A stretch of 64,000 nucleotides of DNA from the NCBI RefSeq assembly GCF_003334765.1, contig NZ_QOWT01000004.1; one strand, written 5' to 3'. Every line of letters begins with the position of its first letter. Position 1 is the stretch's first letter. The stretch is from Escherichia coli (GTDB lineage Bacteria; Pseudomonadota; Gammaproteobacteria; Enterobacterales; Enterobacteriaceae). The notes beneath the pieces are model-generated. The model saw only the letters and a list, made by a program, of their open reading frames with translations, searched no databases and was not told the origin of the DNA. The position numbers and the translations under genes were made by a program. Positions 63,399 through 64,000 of this stretch are shown in pieces.

Positions 63399-63431
63399 CA
63401 AAAAAGGCCGCAGGCTGTTACCCCTGCGGCC
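63399..63431 (-). terminator. rho-independent terminator of ldrA
   Basis: GGCCGCAGG-N8-CCTGCGGCC with an A6 run on the plus side (T-run on the minus strand); identical hairpin recurs at 63941-63966. Confidence 0.55.
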
Positions 63432-63480
63432 GGTTTCGGGCGCATATTGCCATCACGGCAGCCTGACGCCCGTTTTCACC

Positions 63481-63588
63481 TTACTTCCGGTTACGCCACC
63501 AGCTGACAATCGCTGCGGTAATAATTCCCGCCAGGATCGGTGCTGCCAGGTCGTGCCAGAAAATCATGGCAAACTGCGCGAGCGTCAT
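63481..63588 (-). CDS. ldrA: type I toxin LdrA (35 aa)
   Basis: Minus strand encodes MTLAQFAMIFWHDLAAPILAGIITAAIVSWWRNRK; 149 bp downstream of kdsA as in K-12. Confidence 0.8.
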   Translation of the reverse strand: MTLAQFAMIFWHDLAAPILAGIITAAIVSWWRNRK

Positions 63589-63635
63589 ATAGCCGCCTTG
63601 TTGTAATGACAACATTTTGCGGCTATTCTTGAAGT

Positions 63636-63702
63636 GTCTGGTTTCAAGATTAGCCCCCGTTCTGTTGTCAGGTTTTACCTCTCAACGTGCGGGGGTTTTC
63701 TC
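63636..63702 (+). ncRNA. rdlA: RdlA antisense RNA (antitoxin of ldrA)
   Basis: Plus-strand segment antisense to the ldrA leader, ending in GC-rich stem plus U-run (CGGGGGTTTTC at 63690-63700); start approximate, extrapolated from remembered K-12 spacing. Confidence 0.45.
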
Positions 63703-63940
63703 TTTCCAGCAACCAATGCCACCAGGGATAAAGCCCCCGCAACATTGCGCCTCACCGGATAACGCCGGCTTGGTGTGGATACTACGACTCAATTCATCTT
63801 CACTTCATCCCTGAAATGTTTGCAATGAAGAGTGCATTCCGGTTTTTCAACAGCTGTTACAGTCATTTCATGAGTGCTCTGGATGAGGCTTCCAGCTCGG
63901 GTTGCCAATATTTACTTGTGGAAGTGATAAAGACAAAAAT

Positions 63941-64000
63941 GGCCGCAGGCTGTTACCCCTGCGGCCGGTTTCGGGCGCATATTGCCATCACGGCAGCCTG
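63941..64000. repeat. start of the second ldr/rdl tandem unit (535-bp period)
   Basis: 63941-64000 is identical to 63406-63465 (GGCCGCAGGCTGTTACCCCTGCGGCCGGTTTCGGGCGCATATTGCCATCACGGCAGCCTG). Confidence 0.8.

What the first reader, a model, noticed from the sequence alone, without database searches (positions are those of the whole stretch)
63399..64000. ldrA/rdlA type I toxin-antitoxin module and start of its tandem repeat
The minus strand at 63481-63588 encodes the 35-aa Ldr-type toxin, with a terminator hairpin downstream and an antisense RNA-like element (rdlA) with its own GC-stem/U-run terminator on the plus strand upstream. The 60 nt at 63941-64000 exactly repeat 63406-63465, so the window ends inside the next unit of a 535-bp tandem repeat. 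K-12 has three such units (ldrA/B/C) here.
Basis: partly seen in the sequence, partly recalled or inferred. Interest (0 to 1): 0.5.

Follow-up and report, generated by a model that had tools for sequence, protein, structure and literature searches.

The report
Known ldrA/rdlA toxin-antitoxin repeat unit
This is the first copy of the well-known E. coli "long direct repeat": a 35-residue membrane toxin gene (ldr) and the small antisense RNA (rdl) that keeps it silent, with the window ending just inside the next copy. It is real but already described.

Summary

- **Toxin ORF:** the minus-strand ORF 63481-63588 encodes MTLAQFAMIFWHDLAAPILAGIITAAIVSWWRNRK. It matches Pfam Ldr_toxin over its full length (E 1.8e-24) and is identical to RefSeq LdrA/LdrC.
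- **Antisense RNA:** Rfam rdlD matches 63636-63701 (+) at 91.4 bits against a gathering score of 50. This lies 48 nt upstream of the ldr start codon.
- **Terminators:** both transcripts end in terminator-like hairpins.
- **Repeat:** 63398-63465 recurs at 63933-64000 (68 nt, one mismatch, period 535).
- **Array size:** in seven E. coli relatives with the same kdsA flank, the array continues as two or three units before chaA. K-12 MG1655 has three.

This is the LDR locus of Kawano et al. 2002, so it is already known.

Three smaller points came out of the work:

- The rdl here differs from K-12 rdlA at six positions and equals K-12 rdlB. All six lie in two hairpin loops. This is either gene conversion between units or an assembly artefact.
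- The leader ORF proposed in the literature (ldrX) is present.
- The ldr mRNA is predicted to fold back on itself as hok mRNA does. Conservation supports this; covariation barely does.

The parts
63398..63431 (-). Intrinsic terminator of the ldr mRNA: stem-loop 63431-63406 followed by a T-run 63405-63398. This is also the left edge of repeat unit 1.
   Evidence: 9-bp stem, 8 GC pairs, tail TTTTTTGT. Conserved in all 16 units, with one compensatory pair.
63432..63480 (-). ldr 3' UTR. It is predicted to pair with the ldr translation-initiation region and with a 5' GGCGCA element, in a hok-like fold-back.
   Evidence: 33 long-range pairs, 97.3% of cells paired against 30-52% for slid controls. 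Between the window unit and the D-type (ldrD-like) units, the 3' UTR is more conserved than the CDS (0.78-0.81 against 0.68-0.69).
63481..63588 (-). ldr toxin CDS (LdrA by position), 35 aa plus stop.
   Evidence: Pfam PF13940 1-35/35, E 1.8e-24. Identical to WP_000170955.1. PDB 5LBJ (LdrD), E 1.5e-10. Third codon positions are less conserved than first and second (0.73 against 0.84).
63585..63647 (-). Candidate leader ORF ldrX: TTG start at 63647, 20 codons, and a TGA stop that overlaps the ldr ATG as ATGA. An SD-like GGGGG lies 6 nt upstream.
   Evidence: Matches the description of ldrX in PMC4147584 and PMC8167048. The evidence that it is translated is weak.
63601..63629 (+). Inferred rdl promoter: -35 TTGTAA (63601-63606), 17-nt spacer, -10 TATTCT (63624-63629), 6 nt before the Rdl 5' end.
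   Evidence: Read. It matches 8 of 12 consensus positions, so it falls below the threshold of the scan. The -35 is conserved as TTGNNA across genera. Inference only.
63636..63702 (+). Rdl antisense RNA (67 nt): an unpaired 5' tail (nt 1-11), then a long GC-rich stem-loop and a U-run.
   Evidence: Rfam RF01813 at 91.4 bits. Fold energy -27.1 kcal/mol, z = -5.5. Identical to K-12 rdlB.
63589..63772 (-). ldr 5' UTR (about 184 nt). It contains the hairpin 63657-63619, whose 11-nt loop (63633-63643) is complementary to Rdl nt 1-8.
   Evidence: The TSS at about 63772 is inferred, not mapped.
63779..63784 (-). Inferred -10 box of the ldr promoter (TAGTAT; TAGAAT in other genera). Cross-genus homology begins here.
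   Evidence: No consensus sigma-70 promoter was found by the scan.
63785..63932 (.). Spacer of unit 1. It is conserved only among tandem units of close relatives.
63933..64000 (-). Start of unit 2: the terminator and the beginning of the 3' UTR of the next ldr gene.
   Evidence: In the relatives examined it continues as a complete unit.

Best explanation
The region is the first unit of the chromosomal LDR (long direct repeat) array that lies between kdsA and chaA in E. coli. Each 535-bp unit is a type I toxin-antitoxin module.

The minus strand gives an mRNA of about 373 nt (inferred). It has a 5' UTR of about 184 nt, the 35-codon ldr ORF for a single-pass inner-membrane toxin, and an intrinsic terminator. 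The plus strand gives the 67-nt Rdl RNA, which is fully complementary to the middle of the ldr 5' UTR and does not overlap the ldr SD or start codon.

Most likely mechanism:
1. The ldr start region is locked in secondary structure. It pairs with the 3' UTR in the full-length mRNA, so Ldr can be made only when ribosomes translate the upstream leader frame ldrX. That frame starts at the TTG at 63647 and ends in ATGA on the ldr start codon.
2. The unpaired 5' tail of Rdl contacts the 11-nt loop of the hairpin that carries the ldrX SD and TTG. Pairing then spreads into a 67-bp duplex.
3. The duplex blocks ldrX initiation and becomes an RNase III substrate.

Shown here: the sequence features and their conservation. 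Shown in the literature: Ldr toxicity, repression by Rdl, and RNase III-cut duplex at ldrD/rdlD. Inferred: the TSS, ldrX coupling, the loop-tail contact and the fold-back.
For: Identity:
- Pfam Ldr_toxin over the full length, E 1.8e-24.
- Rfam rdlD at 91.4 bits against a gathering score of 50.
- RefSeq annotates the same ORF as an Ldr family toxin, flanked by kdsA and chaA, in seven genomes.
- All 5426 complete E. coli genomes match the region.
- Terminators; 535-bp repeat.

Selection on the protein: third codon positions are 0.73 identical against 0.84 for first and second positions, across Escherichia, Pseudocitrobacter and Citrobacter.

Mechanism:
- Rdl nt 1-11 are unpaired in the MFE fold.
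- Their complement is the loop of a conserved hairpin whose stem holds GGGGG...TTG.
- The frame opened by the TTG reaches the ldr ATG in all 16 units.
- 33 long-range TIR/5'-end to 3'-UTR pairs are 97.3% kept.
- The Rfam model of the hok mRNA leader (RF01794) aligns over its full length with every ldr leader tested, ending at the AUG: 27-41 bits, E down to 1e-7.

Literature:
- An RNase III-dependent 21-nt dsRNA at ldrD/rdlD (PMC7373196).
- LdrA is a membrane toxin that causes an ATP drop (PMC12643268, PMC8309996).
Against: Nothing argues against the identity.

The mechanistic steps are weaker:
- Reviews still call the Rdl mechanism unknown (PMC8309996).
- The ldrX frame is not fixed. It overlaps as ATGA in some units, is in frame with ldr in others, and ends at +20 in Pseudocitrobacter. 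Two of the three frames are open in that stretch anyway, and the peptide is not conserved.
- The long-range helices have only one pair with compensatory changes, and the structure was derived from these same sequences.
- The RF01794 hits are below the gathering score of 59.
- The reciprocal search with an ldr-leader model found nothing in the hokC leader.
- No consensus promoter was found for ldr.
Confidence: 0.93

Rival explanations
1. Rdl represses mainly by triggering RNase III cleavage and decay of the ldr mRNA. No leader-ORF coupling is involved.
For: A p19-captured dsRNA peak of about 21 nt lies inside the ldrD/rdlD overlap. The half-lives of both RNAs rise slightly in rnc mutants, and a short ldrD species appears only in rnc mutants (PMC7373196). 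The 67-nt perfect complementarity is read directly from the sequence.
Against: The half-life effects were described as slight. In the related hok/sok system, cleavage follows translational block rather than replacing it (PMC4147584). This reading does not explain why the Rdl target is placed over a conserved SD-like sequence plus TTG rather than over the ldr start.
Confidence: 0.25
2. Rdl binding refolds the leader so that the ldr SD is sequestered directly. The ldrX frame is an accident of a conserved RNA structure and is never translated.
For: The ldrX frame shifts among units and its peptide is not conserved. Two of the three frames are open there by chance. The leader alone is predicted to adopt alternative pairings, with 5' AGGCGC pairing with the SD region and UGACAAC pairing with GUUGUCA, including one compensatory change.
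Against: The TTG and the GGGGG upstream of it are invariant in all 16 units. The frame is never closed before the ldr ATG, despite indels of 1-5 nt.
Confidence: 0.2
3. The 68 nt at the window end are only a duplicated terminator fragment and not a complete second unit, so the source genome has a single functional unit.
For: The window stops at 64000, so nothing beyond can be read. Single-unit arrays do exist (E. coli E69).
Against: In the single-unit array the terminator motif occurs only once. In all seven relatives that share the kdsA flank, the second copy is followed by a complete unit. Three of them are 100% identical to 63333-64000.
Confidence: 0.03

Closest known systems
LDR-A/B/C array of E. 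coli K-12 (ldrA-rdlA, ldrB-rdlB, ldrC-rdlC; Kawano et al. 2002)
   Same: Same flanks (kdsA to chaA), same 535-bp period and same LdrA protein. Unit 1 is identical to MG1655 unit 1 at 529 of 535 positions.
   Different: There are six substitutions (63634, 63638-63640, 63642, 63675). They make the rdl of unit 1 identical to K-12 rdlB. Among 5426 complete genomes, only nine records score above the canonical K-12 type for 63333-64000.
ldrD/rdlD (the fourth K-12 copy, and the experimentally characterised one; Rfam RF01813, PDB 5LBJ)
   Same: Same architecture. Rfam rdlD matches over its full length. LdrD aligns 1-35 with E 1.5e-10. D-type units of other Escherichia species align from the -10 box to the terminator.
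   Different: CDS identity between the window unit and the D-type units is only 0.68-0.69. In D-type units the TTG frame runs in frame into ldr instead of ending in ATGA.
hok/sok/mok type I system
   Same: Both have a long leader, an antisense RNA that targets the leader rather than the toxin start, and an upstream frame overlapping the toxin start. [quoted passage not shown] The hok-leader model RF01794 aligns over its full length with ldr leaders.
   Different: The toxins are unrelated (Ldr/Fst family against Hok). The RF01794 scores of 27-41 bits are below the gathering score of 59. The reciprocal ldr-leader model does not find the hokC leader. Processing at the 3' end has not been shown for ldr.
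Fst/RNAII (par of pAD1) and other Gram-positive Fst/Ldr modules
   Same: The toxin superfamily signature is present: a TM helix, a PXXXG motif (P17-G21 here), a conserved Trp and a charged C-terminus (PMC7472228; read from the sequence).
   Different: The antisense RNAs of Fst-type modules pair at the 3' end of the toxin gene, not in the 5' leader (PMC2887945).

Membership tests
Ldr toxin (Pfam PF13940; Fst/Ldr superfamily) | Full-length match to the 35-residue Ldr profile | tested here: met
   1-35/35, E 1.8e-24, 85.9 bits. NCBIfam has no model that hits.
Ldr toxin (Pfam PF13940; Fst/Ldr superfamily) | Hydrophobic helix with a PXXXG motif, a conserved Trp after the helix, and a basic C-terminus | tested here: met
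   Read from the sequence...AAPILAGIITAAIVSWWRNRK. The signature is as described in PMC7472228.
Ldr toxin (Pfam PF13940; Fst/Ldr superfamily) | Toxic to the host when overexpressed | not testable with these tools
   Reported for the identical LdrA protein in the literature (PMC12643268, PMC8309996).
Rdl antitoxin RNA (Rfam RF01813) | Covariance-model score at or above the gathering threshold | tested here: met
   91.4 bits against 50, model positions 1-66/66.
Rdl antitoxin RNA (Rfam RF01813) | Encoded antisense to the ldr 5' UTR, without overlapping the ldr RBS or start codon | tested here: met
   Rdl lies at 63636-63702 (+) and the ldr ATG at 63588 (-), a gap of 47 nt.
Rdl antitoxin RNA (Rfam RF01813) | Own promoter and intrinsic terminator; expressed as an RNA of about 60-67 nt | tested here: inconclusive
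   The terminator was found. The promoter matches only 8 of 12 consensus positions, although its -35 TTGNNA is conserved. Expression is not testable here.
LDR tandem array | Units of about 530 bp repeated head to tail between kdsA and chaA | tested here: met
   Period 535. kdsA lies directly upstream. Relatives have two or three units and then chaA. The unit count in the source genome is not readable from the window.
Type I toxin-antitoxin system | The antisense RNA represses toxin translation | not testable with these tools
   Shown for LdrD/RdlD by Kawano et al. 2002, as cited in PMC4147584.
hok/sok-type regulation | Membership of the hok leader family (RF01794) at the gathering score | tested here: not met
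   29.3 bits in the window and 27-41 bits in other ldr leaders, against a gathering score of 59. The reciprocal model gave no hit.
hok/sok-type regulation | A leader ORF overlapping the toxin start, with its initiation region inside the antisense target | tested here: inconclusive
   The ORF 63647-63585 is present and is open in all 16 units. Its frame varies and the chance expectation of an open frame there is high.
hok/sok-type regulation | Fold-back pairing of the mRNA 5' and 3' ends that is relieved by 3' processing | tested here: inconclusive
   The pairing is predicted and conserved (97.3% of cells paired), but only one pair shows compensatory change. Processing is not testable here.

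The most novel reading that the evidence does not exclude
The variable nucleotides of ldr/rdl units sit almost only in two hairpin loops. One is the loop that meets the Rdl 5' tail; the other is the apical loop of the next hairpin. The same few loop alleles recur in different Escherichia species: GTTCTGG, GTCTGGT and GTTGATGG at the Rdl 5' end.

On this reading they are old recognition-specificity alleles that keep tandem copies from cross-regulating, and gene conversion shuffles them between units. In the window strain, unit 1 has acquired the rdlB-type loops. All units would then share one Rdl tail and would no longer be insulated from each other. Separately, the ldr mRNA would use a hok-like fold-back and leader-ORF switch.
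Probability: 0.3. Interest if true: 0.35.

Novelty: already known. Interest (0 to 1): 0.1.

Why it matters
As a finding it adds nothing new. The LDR/ldr-rdl locus has been known since 1999-2002, is in Pfam and Rfam, and is annotated in RefSeq.

Its residual value is as a clean example for two open questions: how Rdl actually represses ldr, which reviews still call unknown, and whether paralogous antisense RNAs in a tandem array are insulated from one another by loop-sequence alleles.

Tried and rejected
1. NCBIfam scan of the 35-aa and 44-aa ORFs gave no family. Pfam has one.

2. The simple sigma-70 scan found no promoter in 63200-64000. The promoters are therefore inferred from conservation only.

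3. The genome-contig scan with the 16-nt rdl core returned 56 loci. Most are chance hits in unrelated phyla, which is expected for a 16-mer in 298 Gb. Only the ten enterobacterial loci were used.

4. Homology of the ldr leader to the hok leader. The RF01794 hits are reproducible but below threshold. A covariance model built from 14 ldr leaders (R1) found nothing in the hokC leader (best 4.2 bits) and only itself in the window. I therefore treat the likeness as architectural and do not claim homology. The model is very narrow (effective sequence number 0.95), so this negative result is weak.

5. Covariation support for Rdl itself: none. All 20 pairs are invariant or change on one side only.

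6. The 44-aa ORF from the ATG at 63615 is not conserved outside close E. coli relatives, where that codon becomes ACG, TCG, CTG or CGG. It was rejected as the real start.

7. Source strain. No complete RefSeq genome matches the last 25 kb exactly. The best hits differ only at the rdl tract, and K-12 derivatives carry a few more mismatches. The source genome was not identified.

Full report
**Observation**

- On the minus strand an ATG at 63588 opens 35 codons ending in TAA at 63481-63483. The product is MTLAQFAMIFWHDLAAPILAGIITAAIVSWWRNRK.
- On the plus strand, Rfam rdlD (RF01813) matches 63636-63701 over the whole model at 91.4 bits, against a gathering score of 50. The 67-nt RNA folds with an unpaired 5' tail of 11 nt, a long GC-rich stem-loop and a U-run (-27.1 kcal/mol, z = -5.5).
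- Terminator-like hairpins lie downstream of the ORF on the minus strand (63431-63406 plus TTTTTTGT) and at the end of rdl on the plus strand. There are four sites in 800 nt against 1.1 expected.
- 63398-63465 is repeated at 63933-64000 (68 nt, one mismatch, spacing 535).

**Identity**

- The ORF matches Pfam Ldr_toxin end to end (E 1.8e-24). It aligns 1-35 with the solved LdrD peptide 5LBJ.
- The gene upstream is kdsA (62478-63332).
- A search of 5426 complete E. coli genomes found the region in all of them.
- In seven relatives the same ORF is annotated as "type I toxin-antitoxin system toxin Ldr family protein". It lies in an array of two units (IH5, Z217-2) or three units (MG1655, J53-p1-pV-hybrid-1, 184/2aE, O157:H16 98-3133, KL53) between kdsA and chaA, always with a 535-bp period.
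- In a single-unit array (E. coli E69) the terminator motif occurs once only. The second copy at the end of the window therefore marks a second unit.
- The literature describes exactly this. There are four LDR copies in MG1655, three of them tandem. Each encodes a 35-aa toxic Ldr peptide and an antisense Rdl RNA of about 60 nt that overlaps the 5' UTR but not the RBS (PMC4147584; PMC2887945).

**Departure from K-12**

Over the last 4668 nt the window differs from MG1655 only at 63634, 63638, 63639, 63640, 63642 and 63675. These changes make the unit-1 rdl identical to K-12 rdlB, while the flanks (63563 and 63763 onward) stay of the unit-A type. That pattern is a short conversion tract.
- Only nine records score above the canonical type for 63333-64000, and three are 100% identical.
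- In two of those three, the unit-2 ORF is also LdrA-type rather than LdrB.
- The pattern equals the majority base of the three K-12 units at each site. A repeat-polishing artefact in the source assembly therefore cannot be excluded.

**Comparative anatomy**

A scan of one genome per species with the rdl core gave ten usable enterobacterial loci. With MG1655 and the window this makes 16 units from Escherichia, Pseudocitrobacter and Citrobacter.
- Homology starts at a conserved TAGTAT/TAGAAT (63784-63779, minus strand) and runs to the terminator. This implies a TSS near 63772 and an mRNA of about 373 nt. This is an inference; I could not read Kawano et al. 2002.
- The CDS shows more change at third codon positions (identity 0.73) than at first and second positions (0.84). 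That is the pattern expected of a translated gene.
- Between the window unit and the D-type (ldrD-like) units, the UTRs are better conserved than the CDS (5' UTR 0.82-0.85 and 3' UTR 0.78-0.81, against 0.68-0.69).

**Mechanism**

The consensus fold has four elements:
- a 5' hairpin;
- two hairpins that mirror the Rdl structure;
- a hairpin at 63657-63619 whose stem holds an SD-like GGGGG and an invariant TTG (63647), and whose 11-nt loop (63633-63643) is complementary to Rdl nt 1-8;
- long-range pairing of the ldr start region (63613-63579) and a 5' GGCGCA (63750-63745) with the 3' UTR (63440-63472).

On the long-range pairing: the 33 pairs are 97.3% kept, against 30-52% when the partners are slid. 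Only one pair shows compensatory change, and the structure was derived from these same sequences.

On ldrX: the frame opened by the TTG ends in ATGA on the ldr start in the window. It reaches the ldr ATG in all 16 units, although in different frames. It fits the "ldrX" of Gerdes and Wagner as described in reviews. The evidence is nevertheless weak, because two of the three frames are open there and the peptide is not conserved.

On loop variation: five of the six differences from K-12 rdlA fall in the 11-nt loop and the sixth falls in the apical loop of the next hairpin. More generally, the variable columns of the leader are loop columns.

On the literature: RNase III-cut duplex at ldrD/rdlD has been shown experimentally (PMC7373196). 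Reviews still call the Rdl mechanism unknown (PMC8309996).

**Comparison with hok**

- Rfam RF01794, named "sok", in fact models the sense-strand leader of hok mRNA up to its AUG. It scores 118 bits on hokC, on the same strand as the CDS.
- It aligns over its full length with every ldr leader tested, always ending at the ldr AUG. The scores are 29.3 bits in the window, 31.8 and 27.4 in Escherichia sp. E1V33, and 41.4 in C. sedlakii.
- All of these are below the gathering score of 59.
- A model built from 14 ldr leaders did not find the hokC leader.
- I therefore read this as a shared architecture that supports a hok-like mode of control. It is not evidence of family membership.

**Verdict**

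The element is the known ldrA/rdlA unit of the LDR array, so novelty is nil and interest is low. The side observations may be worth a note: the rdlB-type loops in unit 1, the confinement of variation to loops, the predicted fold-back and the sub-threshold likeness to the hok leader. None changes the classification.

Noticed in passing
window 63634-63675: The unit-1 rdl differs from K-12 rdlA at six positions and equals K-12 rdlB. All six positions lie in two hairpin loops. Only nine of 5426 complete genomes score above the canonical type. This is either gene conversion or a polishing artefact, because the pattern equals the majority base of the three K-12 units.
   Followed up: partly
window 63586-63738 (-); L023 3741-3894 and 4224-4377 (+); L040 4717-4873 (-): Rfam RF01794 "sok" is really the hok mRNA leader on the sense strand. 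It hits every ldr leader over its full length at 27-41 bits, below its gathering score of 59. The reciprocal ldr-leader model does not find hokC.
   Followed up: yes
window 63589-63615 (-): An in-frame ATG nine codons upstream of the annotated ldr start would give a 44-aa product (MLSLQQGGY + LdrA). It is present in the E. coli units and in one of the two units next to kdsA in Escherichia sp. E1V33 (and E. whittamii keeps the ATG, though out of frame with ldr), but it is replaced by ACG, TCG, CTG or CGG in the other units compared.
   Followed up: partly
L051 1443-1547 (+): The Pseudocitrobacter vendiensis ldr copy has a premature stop at codon 31 (…IVGW*RNRK). The toxin would lack its basic C-terminus and is possibly inactivated.
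   Followed up: no
window 24942-25020 (+): Rfam C0299 sRNA matches at 111.9 bits (gathering score 40). It is the only other Rfam family above threshold in the window.
   Followed up: no
L001-L007 (RefSeq records of relatives): In the RefSeq (PGAP) annotation of these relatives, the ldr CDSs are annotated but no rdl ncRNA feature is listed in any of the seven arrays. Other sRNAs such as RtT are annotated in the same records.
   Followed up: no
L007 37692-38604: The tyrT-tyrV region of strain 184/2aE carries four annotated RtT repeat sRNAs interleaved with two tRNA-Tyr genes. This is another tandem-repeat locus, about 17 kb beyond the LDR array.
   Followed up: no
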